DNA from: a phage
DNA length: 64,000 bases
Reading direction: 5' to 3' (one strand)
Sequence record: PX092659.1
In this document: piece by piece, positions 5,817 through 41,283 of the stretch
Layout of the letters: each line of letters starts with the position of its first letter
Position numbering within the stretch: the stretch's first letter is position 1
Notes under the pieces: model-generated
Told to the model about the DNA's origin: nothing
Seen by the model: the letters and a program-made list of their open reading frames with translations, nothing else
Databases searched by the model: none
Made by a program: the position numbers and the translations under genes

Positions 5817-7279
5817 ATATCGCTGGCCTGTTCACCTGTTGAATTTTCAGCTTTGTCTTTCTTAGCACGTTTAGGTTGAGCCGGCTTATCCTTCTCAATA
5901 GGGATAACGAACTCAGCTTCCATTTGAGATATATCTTCCATTGCTAGGTTGGTAGTGTTATCCATTCGCAGAGTTTCCCAGTTCATTTTAGGCATAAACT
6001 TCACGCTATCAGAAGAACGAGTCTTAACGAAGTCAAACATAATAGCACCTTGACCATTATCAGCTTTTGCAGCATTAAGATTAGCAGCCATGTCTGCGGA
6101 ATCAAGAATCCCCTTTGACATACGTGTTCTACCATCCTGATCGATCTGGTAAGGAGCTACACCAGCCACGTTATGTTTCTGGCAGATAGATTTGAAAGAC
6201 GAGCTAACAACCATCTGTTCTTTCCAGTCATACATATCAATGGTTTTAGAATCTGGAAGTCGGGTTTGGTTAATATAGTCCAGTAAAGCTACTGTAACTT
6301 TATCACCATATCTAGCAACTAATTTATTTAACTCTACATCAACTGTTGTAATGGACAGTTCAGGGTCATAAACGATAATCATAGGAGTATGTAGTTCATA
6401 CCCCTCTATTAGTTTACTCTCCATATCGTAGAAATCACTCATCTTAGCCATTGTGTACTGTTTAACAAAGTTATCGAAAAGCTCTTCACCACCATTAAAC
6501 ATTCTAGCTCTAGTTCTGGCTAATCTCAACAGAGCTGCACCTTCTAGAGTATTATTACGCATTGCTAGTGCTGATACACCAGCTAACATGGCTAGATTAC
6601 GTCTAAATACTTCATGTTCTTTCATCTCAATTGAGAAGTATGGAGCAATATCTCCATTCAAATATTGCTGAACCTGTATGTTTGAACAGATAATGGATTT
6701 ACCAGTACCACGCCAACCACCAAGCAGTAACGTTTCTGTGCGAGCTAAACCAATTTGAGCGTCGAACTCATTACAAATACCAAGAGCGATTAAGTTCAGT
6801 TTGGTATCTTCTTCTCTCTGGAAAATACGCATGTTATCTGCGTTGAATACTTTTCCAGTATTCGTTACTTTCTCTTCTAATTTTAAGTGAAGGGAGGCAA
6901 CTCGGTTGAGAATTTCTCCCTGATCCAGCATTGTTAAATCTTGAAGCACGTCTGTTTCTAGAAGCTTCAGGAATAAATCCTGTGTATATTCGGCCTCTAG
7001 GACTTCAAGTGCCTGTTCCATGCTCACTTCTGGAATTTGAGTGTTAGCTAAGACGACTAGAGCTTGAGAAAGGCGGGCGTTCCTATTAGCTTCAAGCATA
7101 AGTGCGTCAATGGACGGCATTGTGTTATATTTTTTATAATAATTCTGGACGGCTTGGTAAATTGAGGAGAAAGCGTCATTAAAATGATCTTTATGCAGTT
7201 TTGAGAATGTTTCCAATGCTATTTGCTTCTGTTCGGAAGCTAGAAGCATCTTCAACACTACAGCTTGCACGTTAAACAT
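5813..7279 (-). CDS. P-loop NTPase, probable replicative helicase-like protein
   Basis: 488 aa; Walker A-like GGWRGTGKS; sits between primase and ligase genes; start ATGA-overlaps upstream HNH stop. Confidence 0.5.
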   Translation of the reverse strand: MFNVQAVVLKMLLASEQKQIALETFSKLHKDHFNDAFSSIYQAVQNYYKKYNTMPSIDALMLEANRNARLSQALVVLANTQIPEVSMEQALEVLEAEYTQDLFLKLLETDVLQDLTMLDQGEILNRVASLHLKLEEKVTNTGKVFNADNMRIFQREEDTKLNLIALGICNEFDAQIGLARTETLLLGGWRGTGKSIICSNIQVQQYLNGDIAPYFSIEMKEHEVFRRNLAMLAGVSALAMRNNTLEGAALLRLARTRARMFNGGEELFDNFVKQYTMAKMSDFYDMESKLIEGYELHTPMIIVYDPELSITTVDVELNKLVARYGDKVTVALLDYINQTRLPDSKTIDMYDWKEQMVVSSSFKSICQKHNVAGVAPYQIDQDGRTRMSKGILDSADMAANLNAAKADNGQGAIMFDFVKTRSSDSVKFMPKMNWETLRMDNTTNLAMEDISQMEAEFVIPIEKDKPAQPKRAKKDKAENSTGEQASDI

Positions 7280-34793: not shown

Positions 34794-35111
34794 ATGACTT
34801 TTCATATTTTGATTGATGATGTGCGTAATCTTCACGGAATGGACATTATCATTCGAACCCCAGAAGCCGCTGTAGAGTTTCTGAATAAAACTGATACCAC
34901 AGGCCATTTCGTTTATATGGATAATGACTTGGCTGTAGATGGTATGGAAGGTTATCAAATTCTCCGTTTACTCTTAGAATTTGGGCAGAGACCAAAGAAA
35001 GTGGTACTAGTAACCTCGAACCCAGTAGCTAAGCAAAATATGCGCAATGATTTGCTTGACTTAGGGTATAAAGAAAATCCCAATCGTGTTGAATATGATT
35101 GGCAGGAGTAA
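34794..35111 (+). CDS. hypothetical protein
   Basis: 105-aa track ORF. Confidence 0.5.
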   Translation: MTFHILIDDVRNLHGMDIIIRTPEAAVEFLNKTDTTGHFVYMDNDLAVDGMEGYQILRLLLEFGQRPKKVVLVTSNPVAKQNMRNDLLDLGYKENPNRVEYDWQE

Positions 35112-35116
35112 AAAGA

Positions 35117-35566
35117 ATGAAGGCAGCTTTGCTTTTAGTAGCTGCCCTTACCTTCAGCTTTAGTAGTCAGGCATCGCACGATGCAAAAGAAATAGATTGC
35201 ATTGCTAAAAATATCTATTTCGAAAGTCGTGGTGAGGGCATAAAGGGAATGACGGCGATTGCACATGTTACTAAAAACCGTGTAAACTCCGGTAAATTCC
35301 CAGATTCCTACTGTAAAGTAGTATATCAGTCTAACCAGTTCTCTTGGGTATCTAAGAAACCAAAAGTTGATAAAACTGATGAGGCTTGGCAAACCGCTAA
35401 GAATTTAGCTAGAGTGATATACTACGTTGATTTACCACAAGATCCTACATATGGAGCACTATACTTCCATAGTGGTAAAGATAAACCTTACTGGACAAAG
35501 AAGTTTAAGAAAACAACTAAGATTAAGGGACATACGTTTTATAAACCTGTTGTCACTAAAACTTAA
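35117..35566 (+). CDS. secreted cell-wall hydrolase (SleB-like)
   Basis: Start moved to ATG 35117 so that the signal peptide MKAALLLVAALTFSFSSQA is N-terminal; hydrolase-like region NIYFESRGEGIKGMTAIAHVTKNR. Confidence 0.55.
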   Translation: MKAALLLVAALTFSFSSQASHDAKEIDCIAKNIYFESRGEGIKGMTAIAHVTKNRVNSGKFPDSYCKVVYQSNQFSWVSKKPKVDKTDEAWQTAKNLARVIYYVDLPQDPTYGALYFHSGKDKPYWTKKFKKTTKIKGHTFYKPVVTKT

Positions 35567-35636: not shown

Positions 35637-35807
35637 ATGAAATCAGTTGTAATTATTGGTGTTAACACTCGCGGTATTCGTACTACGAAAACTGTTAAAA
35701 CTTCTAACATTGCTGAAATCACTACGAACCCTAAAAAGTTTGATTTCGCCAAAGTCTCAGCAGTTATGACAGAACAATCTTTTAACCAAGCATTGGGGAT
35801 GAAATAA
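35637..35807 (+). CDS. hypothetical small protein (56 aa, below track cutoff)
   Basis: ATG after GAGAGGAAGCGAAAT RBS; stop overlaps next start (TAATG). Confidence 0.4.
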   Translation: MKSVVIIGVNTRGIRTTKTVKTSNIAEITTNPKKFDFAKVSAVMTEQSFNQALGMK

Positions 35808-36265
35808 TGGGTGAAAATATTCTAATGACCCTTCGTGGACTGCTTAGTCTAGCACGTACTCACGGTGATAAGGAACGGGCACTTAATCTTCAGACCATGA
35901 TTGGTGATCTGCAACGTATTGATAAAGACATTGTTACTCGAACCGAGTTCGTAGCCTATCTGAAAGCTCAGATTAAGGCTCTAGAAAATGCAAAACAACG
36001 CGCTATTAAAGTTGGTACGGAAGTTCCTACCGATGTAGACTATGAGCAACTGCTTTATTCCATGCTGCAAGAGTATCAGCCAAGTCAACTTACTGAAACT
36101 GAAATTCGTGAGTATTTTGCAGAACTGGTTAAATTAAACCCAGGTATTACCAAAGCTCTATTAATGAAAACCATTAAGGCAGAATTTCCTGGACGTTATG
36201 ACGGTAAAACAACTGCTTTGATTGCTAGTGAATTTTTTAAAAATTCATTTGCTAAATGCTTATAA
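35807..36265 (+). CDS. hypothetical protein
   Basis: 152-aa track ORF. Confidence 0.5.
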   Translation: MGENILMTLRGLLSLARTHGDKERALNLQTMIGDLQRIDKDIVTRTEFVAYLKAQIKALENAKQRAIKVGTEVPTDVDYEQLLYSMLQEYQPSQLTETEIREYFAELVKLNPGITKALLMKTIKAEFPGRYDGKTTALIASEFFKNSFAKCL

Positions 36266-36277
36266 ATTCTGTATAAT
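36249..36277 (+). promoter_or_regulatory. sigma70-type early promoter: TTGCTA-N17-TATAAT, reads into an 810-nt ORF-free region
   Basis: Cassette match; no ORF of 60 aa or more and no convincing RBS-led small ORF until tRNA-Arg at 37090. Confidence 0.6.
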
Positions 36278-37046
36278 ATATTCATAAATTAGGGAACAGC
36301 GAGCCGATTACGCTGAACTTGTCTTAATGTAAGATGCGTCGAGCACTAAGATTCGTTGAATAGAGTCGGTGGGTTAGTTGTAAAACTAGTACACAGGGGG
36401 CGGCAATCCCGGTTAGTGGCTAGAACGTGTAAAATGAGGCGTCTGAAACCTCTCCCCTAAACTCTTCTCTAATTTATAAATAGTGGGGTGTGGAAATCAC
36501 TTATGTAGTAGCACTGCCGTCCTAGTATAATTGGTATTATCAAGCCGTAACTGGTGGAAGATGTAGGTTCGAATCTTACGGTCGGTAAGAACTGGATAAC
36601 TGATGCTTTTAACGTAAAAGCTTCCGAGGTTAGTTGCGCACTGCCTAAACCACGCGGTAGTTGGTTCCAGGCTAACCAACCAGTCTGCTGAATAGTTTTA
36701 TTACGATTTAACTATGTCCAGACTAAAGAAGAACTTTAGAAGGTATTCTAGGATAGTGAAGTTCTTTCTCCATATCGGAGTAGTTTTTCAAGCTATCCAC
36801 AAAGTGGGAAATGCTGACATGAGAGATGTCACTAATGGTGCACAATAGCACAGGTAATTCGCGATAACTCCTGTTGAGTAGCAGCAAAAGGCGGGAAGTC
36901 ATGACCCCAAGCCTAACCGAGTCCTCAATATACCGCAGGACATAACCACTAAGTCACCCTGACTTAAACTGGAAAATAATAGACGTTACTGTATTTTGTC
37001 TTGAAATACTTAATGAGTGAGACTTATGACTCTCCCGGTATCGTCT

Positions 37047-37084
37047 GTATTTTTAAGAGTTTTTACGAGAGTTCTTAAAAATAC
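37047..37084 (+). repeat. perfect 12-bp inverted repeat (GTATTTTTAAGA ... TCTTAAAAATAC) with 14-nt loop
   Basis: Read directly from sequence; sits 5 nt upstream of tRNA-Arg. Confidence 0.7.
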
Positions 37085-37089
37085 TTAAA

Positions 37090-37164
37090 CGGGGTGTAGT
37101 CTAAGGGAGAGGCAGGAGTCTTCTAAATTCCTTTATGCAGGTTCGAATCCTGTCACCTCGGCCA
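37090..37164 (+). tRNA. tRNA-Arg (anticodon TCT)
   Basis: Manual cloverleaf: acceptor CGGGGTG/CACCTCG, anticodon loop CTTCTAA, T-arm GCAGG-TTCGAAT-CCTGT, CCA encoded. Confidence 0.7.
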
Positions 37165-37198
37165 ATTTTATTAACTGTAACTAAAACAAAGGAAATAT

Positions 37199-38146
37199 AT
37201 GTTTAATACTAAAAATATGAAAGAACTGACTTCTGAGCAGAAAGTAATTCGTACTATTAAACGTTGGGGTATTGGTGCTGTAGTTGGTTTAGCAGGCTTG
37301 ATTCTAGCCTTTAATTCATATACTATTGTTTCTGATGGTACGGTTAAAACTCAAACATTTCTGGGTAAAGTAGATCCTAACCCAGTATTACCAGGTTTCC
37401 ATCTTGTAAACCCCTTTGCATCTTTCGACACTTTTAGTACAAAAGATATTGCTGTAAAATTAGATAAACTTCAAGTTCCTAGTCAGGATAAATTTAAATC
37501 CACTGTTGACCTGACTGTTATGTTGCAGTTTGATGGTTCTAAGGCACCGATTAACCGTATTAATGCGGGTACTCAGGATCAAGCGTTAGACAAATATGTA
37601 ACTGAAAAATTACTGTCTACTATTCGTGAGTTTGGTAAGTCTGTACCTAAAGCACAAGATTTGTTTGATGCTAAAATTCAGGCTCAATTGCAAACTGCAA
37701 TTCAACAGGAAGTTGAAGAGTATGCACGCCCATATGGTTATACAGTTAAGCAGGTATTCCTTCAGGATATTACTTTGCCACCGGTAATCATGGAACAGGT
37801 ACAGAATACCAAAGTTCGTGAAGAACAGGTTAATGCTGCTAAAGCTGAATTAGCTCGTGTTGAACAGGAAGCACAGCAAAAAGTTAAACAAGCAGAAGCA
37901 GATCGCGAAGCTCGTAATAACCAAGCTATTGCCAATGAGCGTGACGCAGATGCCAAACTGTACGCAGCTAAGAAAGAAGCTGAAGCTAACGCCGCGTTGC
38001 AACGTACCATTACTCCTGAGATGATTCGCTGGAAGCAACTGGAAGTTGAAATGATTCGTGCTCAGAAATACCAAGGTGGTGTACCGCAGACTGTGGTTGG
38101 CACTGGCTATGATGGCCAAATGATTATGGATATGCGTAATAAATAA
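37199..38146 (+). CDS. SPFH/band-7 (prohibitin/HflC-like) membrane protein
   Basis: 315 aa; N-terminal TM helix (IGAVVGLAGLILAF), SPFH-like core, C-terminal Ala/Glu/Gln-rich coiled coil. Confidence 0.7.
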   Translation: MFNTKNMKELTSEQKVIRTIKRWGIGAVVGLAGLILAFNSYTIVSDGTVKTQTFLGKVDPNPVLPGFHLVNPFASFDTFSTKDIAVKLDKLQVPSQDKFKSTVDLTVMLQFDGSKAPINRINAGTQDQALDKYVTEKLLSTIREFGKSVPKAQDLFDAKIQAQLQTAIQQEVEEYARPYGYTVKQVFLQDITLPPVIMEQVQNTKVREEQVNAAKAELARVEQEAQQKVKQAEADREARNNQAIANERDADAKLYAAKKEAEANAALQRTITPEMIRWKQLEVEMIRAQKYQGGVPQTVVGTGYDGQMIMDMRNK

Positions 38147-38170
38147 TACCCGCATGTAACATCTGAAATA

Positions 38171-38205
38171 AGCCCTGCGTTTCCTGGAGAGCGCAGGGCT
38201 TTTCT
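38171..38205 (+). terminator. rho-independent terminator
   Basis: AGCCCTGCG ... CGCAGGGCT stem followed by TTTTCTG. Confidence 0.75.
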
Positions 38206-38221
38206 GTATTTAAGATAAAAG

Positions 38222-38256
38222 AAAAGCCCCTAAGTCTTTCGACTAGGGGCTTTATT
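38222..38256. terminator. bidirectional rho-independent terminator
   Basis: GCCCCTAAGTC tttc GACTAGGGGC with T-runs on both strands; ends the plus-strand SPFH unit and the minus-strand pair 38471-39901. Confidence 0.7.
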
Positions 38257-38470
38257 GTTTGGTTCTTTAGAACCATATACTCTTGTTACAGCAACCACCC
38301 ATACGGGAGGCCAATCTTGACTGAAAATCTACTCTAGGGGGCAGGATAAGAGTAGGCTTAAAGGCAAACGGATTGAACGCCGGTATTTGTGTAAACATTG
38401 CTGGAGAGCAACAACGTGCTACAGGCATTGGGCAGCACGAAATAGATTTTCTGCAACACATAATTTCTCC

Positions 38471-38887
38471 TTAGGAGTTATTACCACCATTTTGAGCTTT
38501 TGCAACTTGGCTTTGGCAGAAGCTATTAAACTTACCCATAAGTGATACAAGCTGTTTCCCATCCTCTGTCTTTGCGAAGTCTTCGAAAAGGGCTAGTACT
38601 GCCTGTCCTTCCGCAGAAACCTGCGGTTGTTGGGTTTGTTGCTGAACTTGCTGCTGAGGCACCTGTTGCTGCATTTGTTGAGGCATTTGCGACTGCCCGC
38701 TCATTTGCTGCATCATTTGCATAGGACTCACACTTCCAGGGTTTTGCTGGAGTTGTTGCTGCATCTGTTGCGCTTCTGCTAAACGCTGTTGCAATTGTTG
38801 TAAGTAGGGGTTATCCAGACCCGGAATGGGCTGCTGGGAGCCCATACTTTGATTAAGTCCGTTATTTACAAAACCATATTTACTCAT
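38471..38887 (-). CDS. hypothetical Gln-rich low-complexity protein
   Basis: 138 aa; about 35 percent Gln (QQLQQRLAEAQQMQQQLQQ...); part of the inverted two-gene module. Confidence 0.5.
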   Translation of the reverse strand: MSKYGFVNNGLNQSMGSQQPIPGLDNPYLQQLQQRLAEAQQMQQQLQQNPGSVSPMQMMQQMSGQSQMPQQMQQQVPQQQVQQQTQQPQVSAEGQAVLALFEDFAKTEDGKQLVSLMGKFNSFCQSQVAKAQNGGNNS

Positions 38888-38908
38888 AATGGGCTCCTCC
38901 CCTTAATA

Positions 38909-39901
38909 TTAAGCCGGCAGTTTAGCCTGCAGACCAGCCAGAGTCTGAGTGATAGCACCAAGACTTACAGCGATTTGATTAATTACCTGACCGTTAGCAC
39001 CGTTACCCGCAGCGATTGCTTCACGTAGGCGACATGCATCTAACTCATCCTGAATACGAGCAGTAGTTACACCAGCGATAGCAGTCTGAAGTTCACAGCA
39101 ACATTCAGCGATCTGACGTTCCAGAGAGTTCTGGTTAGCACACATCTGAGCCTGAACAGCGGCAAACTGGTTATTAGTTTGTAAAGTCTGCTGGAAAGCG
39201 ATCTGTGCAGAATCAAACTTATCTTGTGCACGAGCTATCTGATTAGCTGCGAAAGATTGATCAATCTGGCGAGAAAGATCGAACTGACCCTGAATAACGT
39301 TGCGAGTTTCCTGACAGATCTGATTAGACAGATTAGCACCTGTACCATAGATCGTAGTTAGTACAGACTGAGTATCACGGCTCTGGTTTTGGGATGTCTG
39401 GCTAAACCCATTGTTAACTGCGCTTAAAACAGCTCCAGTACCCTGGTTAGCTTCTGTACGAGTAGTGTTAATAGCTGCTAGAATACTAGCGGTATCTTGG
39501 TTCTGAAGTACTGCATCAACTGCGGTACCATCACCAACTACACCACGTCCACCGAATCCACCGAAACCACCGAATCCGCCTGTTAATAGAGCACCGATTA
39601 GGATAGCTCCGAATAGTCCCATACCTTCACCACCGAAAGCACCTGCGTTTGCTGGGTAACCACCCAGTAGGCCAGGGAAGCCACTAGTAAATACGTTTAC
39701 TGGTTCTTGCATTTTATGTTTTCCATATTTATGACAATGTTCATCGTCATCTTCTTCATCATCGTGTTCACGATGTTTTTCTTCGTAGGCTCTGACCTTC
39801 TCCCACTTTTTCTTATCTGATTCCTCGTGACGGTGCAGTTCTGCTGCAACGCTAGCGACGGTCTCAGGACTCTTAGCTACTTCTTCTGTCATTTTTGACA
39901 C
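38909..39901 (-). CDS. hypothetical membrane protein with glycine-zipper TM segment and Gln/Asn/Cys-rich C-terminal domain
   Basis: 330 aa; acidic/His-rich N-terminus, Gly-zipper TM (GLFGAILIGALLTGGFGGFGGFGG), Q/N/T-rich C-terminal half with Cys clusters (AECCCELQ); AGGAGGTG RBS. Confidence 0.55.
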   Translation of the reverse strand: MSKMTEEVAKSPETVASVAAELHRHEESDKKKWEKVRAYEEKHREHDDEEDDDEHCHKYGKHKMQEPVNVFTSGFPGLLGGYPANAGAFGGEGMGLFGAILIGALLTGGFGGFGGFGGRGVVGDGTAVDAVLQNQDTASILAAINTTRTEANQGTGAVLSAVNNGFSQTSQNQSRDTQSVLTTIYGTGANLSNQICQETRNVIQGQFDLSRQIDQSFAANQIARAQDKFDSAQIAFQQTLQTNNQFAAVQAQMCANQNSLERQIAECCCELQTAIAGVTTARIQDELDACRLREAIAAGNGANGQVINQIAVSLGAITQTLAGLQAKLPA

Positions 39902-39952
39902 CTCCTAGTATATAGAAAATGTGTGTCTCTTTGATCACTCATCCATAACATA

Positions 39953-39981
39953 TACTTTACACTACCCCAGCGAAAATGTCA
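39953..39981 (-). promoter_or_regulatory. second promoter class (minus): TTGACATTTTCGC-type
   Basis: Reverse complement reads TTGACA ttttcgctggggtagtg TAAAGT; shares the 13-nt TTGACATTTTCGC with 9576-9604. Confidence 0.55.
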
Positions 39982-40098
39982 AGGGGTCTTTAAAAATTGC
40001 CCCTGAATTTTTAGTGGGGTCACAAATTTTGGTCCTCACCATTTATCTGCTATCCTTAAGTGCCCTATGATTTTCCTCTAAAAAGTTAAAAAATTTGA

Positions 40099-40881: not shown

Positions 40882-41283
40882 ATGGAAAAGGTTGAATTTG
40901 AGTACTTTGGAGTTATTTTAATTGTACACTTAAATGGTACAATAGAAACTAAAGATAGAATAATAACACAACGAAATCAATATGGCGAGTATACTAGAAC
41001 TATAAAAGGAAAGGTACTGTCTCCACGTTGCAATGGTAAATCTGGGTATTTTCAGGTGAAGATTTGCAATAAGGGATTAGGTAAAAATGAGTATGTGCAC
41101 AGACTCGTATGGATGGCTTTCAACGGTGAAATACCGGAAGGCTATGAAATAGAGCACAAAGATGATGATAAGTCTAATAATGCTTTACCTAACCTAGAAT
41201 TATTCACAAGAAAGCAGAATATGGACAAAGTCTTAAATAAGATGACTAGAGATTCTCTAGGTCGTTTTGAAAAACTTAACTAG
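40882..41283 (+). CDS. HNH homing endonuclease (divergent copy) inside tRNA cluster
   Basis: 133 aa; HRLVWMAFNGEIPEGYEIEHKDDDKSNNALPNLELFTRKQN. Confidence 0.6.
   Translation: MEKVEFEYFGVILIVHLNGTIETKDRIITQRNQYGEYTRTIKGKVLSPRCNGKSGYFQVKICNKGLGKNEYVHRLVWMAFNGEIPEGYEIEHKDDDKSNNALPNLELFTRKQNMDKVLNKMTRDSLGRFEKLN

What the first reader, a model, noticed from the sequence alone, without database searches (positions are those of the whole stretch)
37199..38146. Phage-encoded SPFH/band-7 membrane protein directly after tRNA-Arg
A 315-aa protein with one N-terminal TM helix, a prohibitin/HflC-like core and a long Ala/Glu/Gln coiled coil. SPFH proteins scaffold membrane microdomains and regulate membrane proteases such as FtsH; no NfeD-like partner is adjacent. 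It sits between tRNA-Arg and a strong terminator, next to the inverted module, forming a roughly 3-kb accessory island (37090-40000).
Basis: partly seen in the sequence, partly recalled or inferred. Interest (0 to 1): 0.55.

Follow-up and report, generated by a model that had tools for sequence, protein, structure and literature searches.

The report
Phage T5 SPFH membrane-scaffold gene
This is the long-annotated SPFH/band-7 membrane protein gene of phage T5 (T5p078): a real, very strongly conserved but laboratory-dispensable early gene that probably builds a cage on the host inner membrane, and whose role in infection nobody has yet determined.

Summary
Window 37199-38146 (+) encodes a 315-aa protein with one N-terminal membrane helix, a genuine SPFH/Band_7 core (Pfam E=2e-17, carried entirely by the globular part), a ~95-residue Ala/Glu/Gln helical region and short C-terminal strands. 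The AlphaFold model matches erlin, prohibitin, stomatin, HflK/C and QmcA cage subunits over its full length. It follows tRNA-Arg by 34 nt and precedes two strong terminators. No NfeD partner is present.

It is not new. The protein is 99.4% identical to T5p078 of phage T5, annotated with PF01145, and lies in the 8.2-kb segment deleted in the viable T5st0 strain.

New here:
- The family is a distinct, phage-dominated SPFH clade found in T5-like, T4-like and Privateervirus phages, with a chromosomal copy in Morganella/Providencia and a cellular sister clade in methylotrophs.
- It is near-universal in T5 relatives and the most constrained gene of its neighbourhood (pN/pS 0.05).
- Its predicted topology is periplasm-facing like HflK/C, although its sequence is closest to QmcA.
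- The "3-kb island" is not one unit.

The function is inferred, not shown: a homo-oligomeric inner-membrane cage, with FtsH as the best-guess client.

The parts
36249..36277 (+). Sigma-70 promoter (TTGCTA-17-TATAAT), corresponding to T5 'promoter P16-17'. It is the only good promoter-like site upstream of the SPFH gene.
   Evidence: It matches 10 of 12 consensus positions. It is identical in T5 (alignment), and the T5 record annotates a promoter there.
36284..37089 (+). ORF-free structured leader equivalent to T5 'RNAX'. It contains a tRNA-like element at 36516-36587.
   Evidence: T5 annotates misc_RNA RNAX directly upstream of tRNA-Arg. The window aligns to it, with a ~162-nt insertion and an 87-nt deletion. 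Rfam tRNA scores 30.7 bits against a gathering score of 29. The start coordinate is inferred from the promoter.
37090..37164 (+). tRNA-Arg (anticodon UCU), co-transcribed with the SPFH gene and 34 nt upstream of it.
   Evidence: Found by ARAGORN and by Rfam at 49.3 bits. No promoter-like site lies between it and the ORF. None of the 14 Arg codons of the SPFH gene is AGA or AGG, so the link is transcriptional, not decoding.
37189..37193 (+). Shine-Dalgarno sequence AAGGA, 5 nt before the ATG.
   Evidence: Read directly from the sequence.
37199..38146 (+). SPFH/Band_7 protein gene, 315 aa, orthologue of T5p078.
   Evidence: Supported. pN/pS is 0.049.
37265..37330 (+). Single N-terminal transmembrane helix (residues ~23-44), preceded by a Lys/Arg-rich N-terminal tail.
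   Evidence: It gives the hydropathy maximum. The AF2 model has a helix at 12-38. Positive-inside bias over 27 family members is KR 91 / DE 23 on the N side and KR 46 / DE 33 on the C side.
37316..37783 (+). Globular SPFH core (residues 40-195), an alpha/beta domain.
   Evidence: Band_7 scores 62.6 bits on this piece alone. Foldseek matches isolated SPFH-domain crystal structures 4fvj, 4fvf and 3bk6.
37781..38068 (+). Long helical (coiled-coil type) region: helix 195-270, then helix 273-290. These are the wall and cap helices of SPFH cages.
   Evidence: AF2 secondary structure, full-length Foldseek alignments to cage subunits, and composition A19 E14 Q11 K9.
38090..38134 (+). C-terminal beta strands (residues 298-312), conserved across the family. 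This is the position of the cap-closing strands in solved SPFH cages.
   Evidence: AF2 strands 298-302 and 308-312, at low pLDDT (~50). The segment is conserved in alignment A1. The cap role is an inference.
38170..38201 (+). First intrinsic terminator hairpin. It contains the position annotated in T5 as a major single-strand nick (38190/38191, a^GCGC).
   Evidence: -22.9 kcal/mol. The nick is mapped from the T5 annotation, L002 2142/2143 plus an offset of 36048.
38217..38259 (.). Bidirectional terminator (T5 'ter1'), shared with the convergent module.
   Evidence: T5 annotation. It folds on both strands at -20.8 and -20.7 kcal/mol, with z-scores of -3.8 and -5.4.

Best explanation
The gene encodes the T5-type phage SPFH protein. 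It is transcribed early by host RNA polymerase from a strong sigma-70 promoter, as the last cistron of a transcript made of a non-coding leader (RNAX), tRNA-Arg and the SPFH ORF. The mRNA is probably released from this transcript by tRNA processing. The protein inserts into the host inner membrane through one N-terminal helix. The N-terminus stays in the cytoplasm and the SPFH domain faces the periplasm, which is the HflK/C orientation and the opposite of QmcA. Like every structurally solved full-length SPFH protein, it most likely self-assembles into a homo-oligomeric dome. The SPFH domains would form a ring on the membrane, the long helices the wall, and the C-terminal strands the cap. The dome would fence off a patch of inner membrane together with whatever host or phage membrane proteins sit in it. 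It works without an NfeD partner. The client is unknown. My best guess is host membrane proteostasis, that is FtsH-type quality control as with HflK/C, which would keep the envelope and selected membrane proteins functional until lysis. The benefit is conditional. The gene is dispensable on laboratory E. coli but under very strong purifying selection in nature, and it has been passed between unrelated virulent phage families. What is shown: identity, fold, gene structure, conservation, dispensability. What is inferred: topology (about 0.7), cage assembly (about 0.75), FtsH or proteostasis client (about 0.25).
For: Identity and fold: Pfam Band_7 E=2e-17, carried by the globular core. The AF2 model has mean pLDDT 79 and the canonical TM / SPFH / long helix / C-terminal strand layout. 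Foldseek gives 263-311-column alignments to erlin, prohibitin, stomatin, HflK/C, QmcA and flotillin cage subunits at E 1e-14 to 1e-8. Topology: the positive-inside bias is consistent over 27 family members. The E. coli paralogues' orientations and NfeD linkage are taken from PMC10434171. Transcription unit: the promoter is conserved with T5, the T5 record annotates P16-17, RNAX, tRNA-Arg, T5p078 and ter1, and there is no internal promoter. No partner: adjacent ORFs lack NfeD, no window ORF resembles YbbJ or YqiJ, and the chromosomal homologues in Morganella, Providencia and methylotrophs are also stand-alone. Selection and spread: pN/pS is 0.049 against 0.15-0.40 for seven neighbours, with proteins 100% identical at pS 0.13-0.32. 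SPFH at >=90% identity occurs in 432 records (plus 7 at 80-90%), against 442 records with a T5-type DNA polymerase at >=90%. Copies of 60-80% identity occur in T4-like phages and in Privateervirus. Dispensability: T5st0 lacks T5p067-078 and is a routinely grown strain.
Against: No experiment on this protein or on any phage SPFH protein was found. Sequence similarity to HflK/C is essentially absent, and the nearest solved relative is the cytoplasm-facing QmcA. Topology rests on the positive-inside rule only, and the same simple count is ambiguous for HflC itself. Oligomerisation could not be modelled with the tools available. The C-terminal strands are low-confidence in the model. HflK/C is a hetero-oligomer, whereas this is a single gene. 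Nothing in the neighbourhood points specifically to FtsH.
Confidence: 0.5

Rival explanations
1. Envelope-integrity or lysis-timing guard. The periplasm-facing SPFH assembly stabilises the inner membrane and proton-motive force, or restrains periplasmic lytic functions (cell-wall hydrolase, holin/antiholin). This would prevent premature lysis or membrane collapse, including collapse triggered by membrane-targeting abortive-infection systems or colicins.
For: The gene is linked to a signal-peptide-bearing Hydrolase_2 (SleB-type) cell-wall hydrolase in three settings, in different gene orders: T5-like phages, a divergent T5-like contig, and Privateervirus. In nine Slopekvirus, Karamvirus and RB43-type T4-like loci it lies 56-220 nt after rI.-1, with the T4 antiholin rI just upstream. 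Cellular SPFH proteins are tied to membrane-stress responses (abstracts of PMC8581546 and PMC10434171). A conditional benefit fits dispensability in the laboratory combined with strong selection in nature.
Against: The T4 tk-rI-nrdC region is a plastic region, and in Aeromonas T4-likes rI lies 2.4-3.2 kb away. The Hydrolase_2 linkage could simply reflect co-transfer of a block of DNA. T5st0 keeps the hydrolase and grows without the SPFH gene. There is no PADLOC or anti-defence signature.
Confidence: 0.2
2. Cytoplasm-facing stomatin/QmcA-type microdomain scaffold. The orientation would be opposite to the one proposed, and the protein would organise cytoplasmic-side membrane complexes such as replication, transport or respiration.
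For: QmcA is the closest solved and E. coli relative by sequence, at E 1.8e-6 and 30.8 bits.
Against: The family has a Lys/Arg-rich N-terminal tail before the TM helix, with net charge about +2.5 per sequence on the N side against +0.5 on the C side. QmcA has no N-terminal tail. QmcA-type proteins come with an NfeD gene, which is missing here. Some family members have a Cys at the end of the hydrophobic segment, which hints at export.
Confidence: 0.15
3. Superinfection-exclusion device. Arrays of periplasmic cages would block inner-membrane penetration or DNA-channel formation by later-arriving phages.
For: It is an early, membrane-located, non-essential gene, and it is shared horizontally between competing virulent phages of the same hosts. 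Virulent phages commonly carry such functions (general knowledge: T4 Imm/Sp, T5 Llp).
Against: There is no similarity to any known exclusion protein. The chromosomal copy in Morganellaceae and the housekeeping-linked sister clade (after folC in Methylophaga) argue for a general membrane function rather than a phage-specific block.
Confidence: 0.1
4. The database labels are right: it is a lipoprotein (PHROG_200, many RefSeq records) or a 'membrane protease' (T5 record).
For: PHROG_200 'lipoprotein' hits at E=1.7e-86. T5p078 is named 'putative membrane protease'.
Against: The protein has no cysteine at all, so no lipobox is possible. Pfam finds only Band_7 and no peptidase domain. The 'protease' label derives from the name of COG0330, 'membrane protease subunits, stomatin/prohibitin homologs'.
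Confidence: 0.02

Closest known systems
T5p078 of Escherichia phage T5 (AAU09419.1, GenBank AY734508) and its orthologues in Tequintavirus/Epseptimavirus
   Same: The protein is 99.4% identical. It has the same position after RNAX and tRNA-Arg and before the nick and terminator ter1, and the same convergent neighbours.
   Different: Essentially nothing. The window's leader RNA carries a ~162-nt insertion and an 87-nt deletion relative to T5.
E. coli QmcA (stomatin-type SPFH; cryo-EM 8z5g, QmcA-YbbJ complex)
   Same: It is the closest solved and E. coli sequence relative (E 1.8e-6, about 25% identity). Length is similar (305 vs 315 aa). It shares the N-terminal TM, the SPFH core with the xPSQ(E/D) motif, the long helix, and a full-length fold match.
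   Different: QmcA has no N-terminal cytoplasmic tail and faces the cytoplasm. It is encoded next to the NfeD protein YbbJ. The phage protein has a basic N-terminal tail, is predicted to face the periplasm, and has no NfeD partner.
E. coli HflK/HflC (FtsH-regulating SPFH cage; 7vhq, 7wi3, 9cz2)
   Same: Both have a single N-terminal TM with the large domain outside the cytoplasm (predicted here). Neither has an NfeD partner. The subunit fold matches over 280-300 columns.
   Different: There is no significant sequence similarity: HflC 7-17 bits, HflK none, and neither appears in PDB sequence searches at E<=1. No HflK/HflC NCBIfam model hits. HflK/C is a hetero-oligomer of two tandem genes, whereas this is one gene. 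FtsH binding is untested.
Eukaryotic prohibitin, erlin and stomatin cages
   Same: These are the best Foldseek matches (erlin1/2 at 1.5e-14, PHB1/2 at 3.6e-13). Prohibitin-2 and prohibitin-1 are second by sequence.
   Different: Identity is 15-20%. They are organellar or eukaryotic and have different clients.
Other virus-encoded SPFH proteins (Vibrio phage pVa5, Rhizobium phage Pasto, Pseudomonas PAK_P3/KPP10 group, giant viruses)
   Same: They have the same fold and overall architecture, and they are likewise uncharacterised.
   Different: Identity is only 14-22%, so these are separate acquisitions or lineages. The T5-type family is a compact clade, with 338 clusters at E<=1e-10 among 1.84 billion representatives.

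Membership tests
SPFH / Band 7 superfamily | Significant match to the Band_7 profile (PF01145) above the curated threshold, located on the globular domain | tested here: met
   The full protein scores 64.2 bits against a 23.6-bit cutoff. Residues 40-195 alone score 62.6 bits, and the tail alone scores nothing.
SPFH / Band 7 superfamily | Alpha/beta SPFH fold | tested here: met
   The AF2 model has pLDDT ~80-89 over residues 40-195. Foldseek matches isolated SPFH-domain crystal structures 4fvj (TMt 0.72), 4fvf (0.74) and 3bk6 (0.61), and all cage subunits.
SPFH / Band 7 superfamily | Membrane anchor, followed after the SPFH domain by a long coiled-coil helix and a C-terminal segment | tested here: met
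   TM at residues 23-44, helices at 195-270 and 273-290, strands at 298-312.
SPFH / Band 7 superfamily | Assembly into a large ring or dome oligomer | not testable with these tools
   Only single-chain prediction is available. Assembly is inferred from full-length similarity to subunits of solved cages.
HflK/HflC (FtsH modulator) | Membership of the HflK or HflC sequence families | tested here: not met
   There is no NCBIfam hit at E<=1. HflK and HflC are absent from PDB sequence hits at E<=1. HflC scores 7-17 bits and HflK <=3.6 bits.
HflK/HflC (FtsH modulator) | Two paralogous genes in tandem forming a hetero-oligomer | tested here: not met
   There is a single SPFH gene, flanked by a tRNA and terminators. 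E. coli has hflK-hflC in tandem.
HflK/HflC (FtsH modulator) | N-in / C-out topology with a periplasmic SPFH domain | tested here: inconclusive
   The positive-inside bias supports N-in/C-out across 27 homologues. This is a prediction only.
HflK/HflC (FtsH modulator) | Binds and regulates FtsH | not testable with these tools
   This needs co-purification, or a complex prediction with the FtsH periplasmic domain.
Stomatin/QmcA-NfeD operon type | Adjacent NfeD-family gene | tested here: not met
   Pfam on eight neighbouring ORFs finds no NfeD. phmmer with YbbJ and YqiJ against all window ORFs gives nothing below E=2. E. coli has qmcA-ybbJ and yqiJ-yqiK.
Stomatin/QmcA-NfeD operon type | Cytoplasm-facing orientation | tested here: inconclusive
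   The charge distribution predicts the opposite orientation. This has not been verified experimentally.
Flotillin / YqiK | Sequence similarity and a long flotillin-type C-terminal repeat region (~550 aa protein) | tested here: not met
   There is no phmmer or hmmsearch hit to YqiK. The protein is 315 aa. Flotillin ranks lower in Foldseek, at 3e-8.
Bacterial lipoprotein (PHROG_200 / RefSeq label) | Lipobox with an invariant cysteine after the signal peptide | tested here: not met
   The 315 residues contain no cysteine.
Known anti-phage defence or candidate defence proteins | Match to a PADLOC model | tested here: not met
   There is no hit for the SPFH protein or for the two convergent neighbours.

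The most novel reading that the evidence does not exclude
The T5-type SPFH protein may be a portable, host-independent takeover module. In this reading it forms a periplasm-facing homo-oligomeric cage that captures a conserved inner-membrane machine, with FtsH as the prime candidate, or that shields the membrane against membrane-targeting abortive-infection effectors. That would explain four observations: it is kept almost invariant in T5 relatives, it has been exchanged between three unrelated families of virulent phages, it travels with a secreted cell-wall hydrolase and a cREC domain protein, and Morganella/Providencia have domesticated it. If so, it would be the first functionally defined virus-encoded SPFH cage and a new class of phage-host membrane interaction.
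Probability: 0.2. Interest if true: 0.7.

Novelty: already known. Interest (0 to 1): 0.35.

Why it matters
SPFH proteins have recently been shown to form closed cages on membranes, but what most of them do is unknown. That holds especially for the many copies carried by phages and giant viruses. The T5-type protein is a good entry point for four reasons. It is a single gene with no partner. A viable deletion strain (T5st0) already exists. It is one of the most strongly constrained genes in its region. It has also moved between T5-like, T4-like and Privateervirus phages and into Morganellaceae chromosomes, which implies a general and selectable function. For genome annotation, the widespread labels 'lipoprotein' and 'membrane protease' for this family are wrong and should read 'SPFH domain membrane protein'.

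Tried and rejected
- **NCBIfam scan:** no family matched, so the protein cannot be filed as HflK, HflC or any named equivalog.
- **PADLOC scan:** no hit for the SPFH protein or the two convergent neighbours.
- **Literature searches:** 'SPFH' with 'bacteriophage T5', 'phage-encoded', HflK/infection, Tequintavirus, and T5-like/prohibitin found only genome-annotation mentions and no functional study. One search failed on a term that was too short. The T5 transcriptome search found nothing usable.
- **Cluster-member look-up for ten distant representatives:** almost no names came back, so it was uninformative about phage versus cellular origin.
- **NfeD partner search:** phmmer with YbbJ and YqiJ against all window ORFs gave nothing below E=2. 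This is a weak test, because NfeD proteins are diverse.
- **Rfam matches in the terminator region:** the sub-threshold hits (trpB motif at 25.8 of 59 bits, Phe leader at 24.1 of 55 bits) are just the terminator hairpins.
- **tRNA-Arg(UCU) placed there to decode the SPFH gene:** rejected, because all 14 Arg codons are CGT or CGC.
- **Recent capture of a host hflK, hflC, qmcA or yqiK gene:** rejected, because identity to QmcA is <=25% and the other three show no significant similarity.
- **Decaying passenger gene:** rejected, because pN/pS is 0.049.
Full report
**What is there.** The window is a T5-like phage (Tequintavirus). A 3.2-kb query around the finding matches 453 phage records. The best are E. 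coli and Salmonella T5-like phages at 97-98% identity. The window carries the T5-type array of 24 tRNA genes and an 854-aa reading frame 99.8% identical to the annotated DNA polymerase of T5-like phages. The ORF at 37199..38146 (+) is exactly as described: 315 aa, ATG start, AAGGA Shine-Dalgarno 5 nt upstream, and 34 nt after tRNA-Arg(UCU) at 37090..37164.

**Is it really SPFH.** Yes.
- Pfam Band_7 (PF01145) scores 64.2 bits (cutoff 23.6, E=2e-17) over residues 52-225.
The globular part alone (residues 40-195) keeps 62.6 bits. The Ala/Glu/Gln-rich tail (196-315) hits nothing. The signal is therefore not coiled-coil composition.
- An AlphaFold2 model built on a 27-sequence family alignment (mean pLDDT 79) shows helix 12-38, a beta-rich domain 41-192 with helices, one 76-residue helix 195-270, a second helix 273-290, and two short C-terminal strands.
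- Foldseek against the PDB aligns 263-311 columns to subunits of every solved SPFH cage at E 1e-14 to 1e-8 and 15-20% identity: erlin1/2, prohibitin, stomatin, HflK/C, QmcA and flotillin. It also matches isolated SPFH-domain crystal structures.
- The only hydrophobic segment is residues ~23-44.
- The protein has no cysteine. The widespread 'lipoprotein' label (PHROG_200, and many RefSeq records) is therefore wrong for it.
- 'Putative membrane protease' in the T5 record comes only from the name of COG0330. No peptidase domain is present.

**It is already known.** The protein is 99.4% identical to T5p078 of phage T5, which GenBank AY734508 annotates as containing PF01145/COG0330. That record is the 8.2-kb segment missing from the heat-stable deletion strain T5st0. 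The complete T5st0 genome joins truncated T5p066 to truncated T5p079 and lacks T5p067-T5p078. T5st0 is grown routinely as a laboratory strain. The gene is therefore dispensable for growth on laboratory E. coli.

The T5 annotation also gives the transcription unit: promoter P16-17, a ~0.7-kb non-coding 'RNAX', tRNA-Arg, T5p078, a major single-strand nick, then the bidirectional terminator ter1. All of these are recognisable in the window.
- The promoter TTGCTA-17-TATAAT lies at 36249-36277 and is identical in T5.
- No promoter-like site lies between the tRNA and the ORF.
- A 13-bp hairpin at 38170-38201 folds at -22.9 kcal/mol. It contains the a^GCGC position that maps to the T5 nick at 38190/38191.
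- A second hairpin at ~38217-38259 folds on both strands.

The adjacency to tRNA-Arg is thus co-transcription. It is not a decoding relationship, because all 14 Arg codons of the gene are CGT or CGC.

**Relationship to cellular SPFH proteins.**
- By sequence, the nearest solved protein and the nearest E. coli paralogue is QmcA (E 1.8e-6, 30.8 bits). Prohibitins follow.
- HflK and HflC do not appear in PDB sequence searches even at E<=1, whether queried with the single sequence or the family profile.
- Against the four K-12 paralogues, HflC reaches 7-17 bits, and HflK and YqiK give nothing.
- No NCBIfam model hits.

So the gene is not a captured copy of a host SPFH gene, and 'HflC-like' is not supported at sequence level. 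Two features nevertheless resemble HflK/C rather than QmcA.
- First, the family has a Lys/Arg-rich tail before the membrane helix. Over 27 members the count is KR 91 / DE 23 on the N side and KR 46 / DE 33 on the C side. By the positive-inside rule this predicts N-in/C-out, a periplasmic SPFH domain. That is the orientation of HflK/C, whereas QmcA and YqiK face the cytoplasm (PMC10434171).
- Second, there is no NfeD partner. None of eight neighbouring ORFs has an NfeD domain, and no window ORF resembles YbbJ or YqiJ. qmcA-ybbJ and yqiJ-yqiK are paired in E. coli and hflKC is not.

**The family.**
- A word-indexed search of 5.8 billion proteins returned 159 hits. The top 120 carry phage names or none, apart from a few isolate-assembly records on phage-sized contigs; contig lengths range from about 1 to 180 kb.
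- An exhaustive profile search of 1.84 billion cluster representatives found only 338 clusters at E<=1e-10 and 1,936 at E<=1e-3. This is a compact clade that barely touches the bulk of the SPFH superfamily.
- In the annotated phage collection, 726 records carry it. Of these, 432 are at >=90% identity (T5 relatives). Another 216 are at 60-80%, mostly T4-like phages of Klebsiella, Enterobacter, Cronobacter and Aeromonas, plus Privateervirus. Weaker copies occur in Vibrio and Aeromonas phages.
- A T5-type DNA polymerase at >=90% identity is found in 442 records. The SPFH gene is thus present in roughly 98% of close T5 relatives.
- A divergent T5-like metagenomic contig with 60% SPFH identity keeps the local order Hydrolase_2, YqeY, (gap), Band_7. 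The gene is therefore an old resident of this lineage.

A scan of one genome per bacterial species found two kinds of chromosomal relatives.
- **57-59% identical, stand-alone genes in the Morganella and Providencia species genomes that matched.** They lie among ordinary metabolic genes, in neighbourhoods that differ between the two genera, and without NfeD.
- **31-41% identical genes in environmental bacteria, mostly methylotrophic and marine Gammaproteobacteria plus a few Desulfobulbales, Myxococcota and Chloroflexi genomes.** In Methylophaga-type genomes the gene sits directly after trpB-trpA-accD-folC. In Methylococcaceae it lies next to DUF2782 and YcxB genes.

In a neighbour-joining tree without support values, the Morganellaceae genes nest inside the phage clade beside the divergent T5-like contig, and the environmental cellular clade is the sister group. 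The simplest reading has three steps: an old capture from bacteria, spread among virulent phages, and one return to a bacterial chromosome.

**Selection.**
- Against 28 T5-like loci, the SPFH gene has pooled pN 0.014 and pS 0.279, giving pN/pS 0.049. The seven neighbouring genes range from 0.15 to 0.40.
- Several phages encode a 100% identical protein while 13-32% of synonymous sites differ.
- Its GC content (39.5%) equals that of the window (39.0%).
- By contrast, the convergent module at 38267-39901 has 46% GC and was found in only 19 of the 28 loci.

The proposed '3-kb accessory island' is therefore two different things: a near-core, compositionally native SPFH gene, and a variable, compositionally foreign inverted module.

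**Context clues to function.** There is no conserved partner across all lineages, but two associations recur.
- **A three-gene set.** A cREC_REC protein, a signal-peptide-bearing Hydrolase_2 (SleB-type) cell-wall hydrolase, and the SPFH gene lie within a few kb of each other. This holds in T5-likes (cREC 34794-35111, hydrolase 35099-35566), in the divergent T5-like contig, and in Privateervirus P59 (order SPFH, gp115, cREC, Hydrolase_2), with different gene orders.
- **Proximity to rI.** In nine Slopekvirus, Karamvirus and RB43-type T4-like loci the gene starts 56-220 nt after rI.-1, with the antiholin rI just upstream. In Aeromonas T4-likes rI is 2.4-3.2 kb away, and this T4 region is known to be plastic.

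Both hints point to the periplasm and envelope. Neither is decisive.

**Most likely mechanism.**
- *Shown:* an early-promoter-driven, tRNA-linked, single-pass SPFH protein under very strong constraint, dispensable in the laboratory.
- *Inferred:* it inserts N-in/C-out and self-assembles into a homo-oligomeric dome on the periplasmic face of the inner membrane, as all structurally solved full-length SPFH proteins do. The dome would enclose a membrane patch and its resident proteins.
- *Client:* unknown. By analogy with the only periplasm-facing, NfeD-less bacterial SPFH complex (HflK/C), FtsH-type membrane quality control is my first guess, at about 0.25.
- *Alternatives:* envelope-integrity or lysis-timing protection, and superinfection exclusion.

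I found no experimental work on any phage SPFH protein. Genome papers that mention them say the role is unclear. Fold comparison shows that SPFH proteins are common in phages and giant viruses.

**Verdict.** The feature has been an annotated T5 gene for about two decades, so it is already known. The added value here is the evolutionary and topological characterisation, and the correction of the 'island', 'HflC-like', 'lipoprotein' and 'protease' notions. Interest is moderate. The function of virus-encoded SPFH cages is a genuine open question, and this gene is a tractable handle on it.

Noticed in passing
window 36284-37089 (+), especially 36516-36587: The ~0.8-kb ORF-free stretch upstream of tRNA-Arg corresponds to T5 'RNAX'. 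It contains a tRNA-like element that Rfam scores just above threshold (30.7 vs 29 bits) and that ARAGORN does not call. Relative to T5, the window has a ~162-nt insertion near the 5' end (about 36298-36459) and an 87-nt deletion near 36960. The function of RNAX is unknown to me.
   Followed up: partly
window 34794-35566 (+); L120 6194-7015; L118 5640-6068 and 13468-13806: A cREC_REC (PF20274) gene and a secreted Hydrolase_2/SleB-type cell-wall hydrolase (PF07486) overlap by 13 nt in the window. They stay linked to the SPFH gene in Privateervirus (Grimontviridae) and in a divergent T5-like contig, but in different orders. In Privateervirus P59 an RtcB RNA ligase lies two genes upstream of the SPFH gene.
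   Followed up: partly
window 38170-38201, nick at 38190/38191: The position annotated in T5 as a major single-strand DNA interruption (a^GCGC) falls inside the first terminator hairpin after the SPFH gene. One short palindromic element may thus serve as both a nick site and an RNA terminator.
   Followed up: partly
window 38267-39901 (-): This is the convergent three-ORF module equivalent to T5p077, T5p076 and T5p075. It comprises a 64-aa Cys-rich ORF, a 138-aa Gln-rich low-complexity protein, and a 330-aa protein with an acidic/His-rich N-terminus, a Gly-rich hydrophobic segment, a Gln/Asn-rich helical part and a CCC motif. GC is 46% against 39% for the window. It was found in only 19 of 28 T5-like loci. 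There are no Pfam or PADLOC hits; the PHROG families are 8119 and 7894, of unknown function.
   Followed up: partly
window 35807-36265 (+): The YqeY/GatB-like gene (T5p079 equivalent) is far more divergent among T5-like phages than its neighbours. Its median identity is 57%, against 97-99% for them. This suggests two allelic types or repeated replacement.
   Followed up: no
L006-L018 (Morganella and Providencia chromosomes), match at ~5970-6940 of each locus: A 57-59% identical, stand-alone copy of the phage-type SPFH gene occurs in the 13 matching Morganella and Providencia loci. It lies among metabolic genes, in neighbourhoods that differ between the two genera. In an NJ tree it nests within the phage clade, which suggests domestication of a phage gene.
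   Followed up: partly
L031, L033, L034, L040, L041, L045, L047, L048, L054, L064, L065: In Methylophaga and Piscirickettsiaceae genomes, the cellular sister-clade SPFH gene sits immediately after trpB-trpA-accD-folC.
   Followed up: partly
window 40882-41283 (+): A 133-aa ORF lies just after tRNA-Ser and tRNA-Met and looks HNH-like by eye (…EHKDDDKSNNALPNLE…). T5 has a longer LuxR+HNH endonuclease (T5p073) at the corresponding place. I did not check this with any tool.
   Followed up: no
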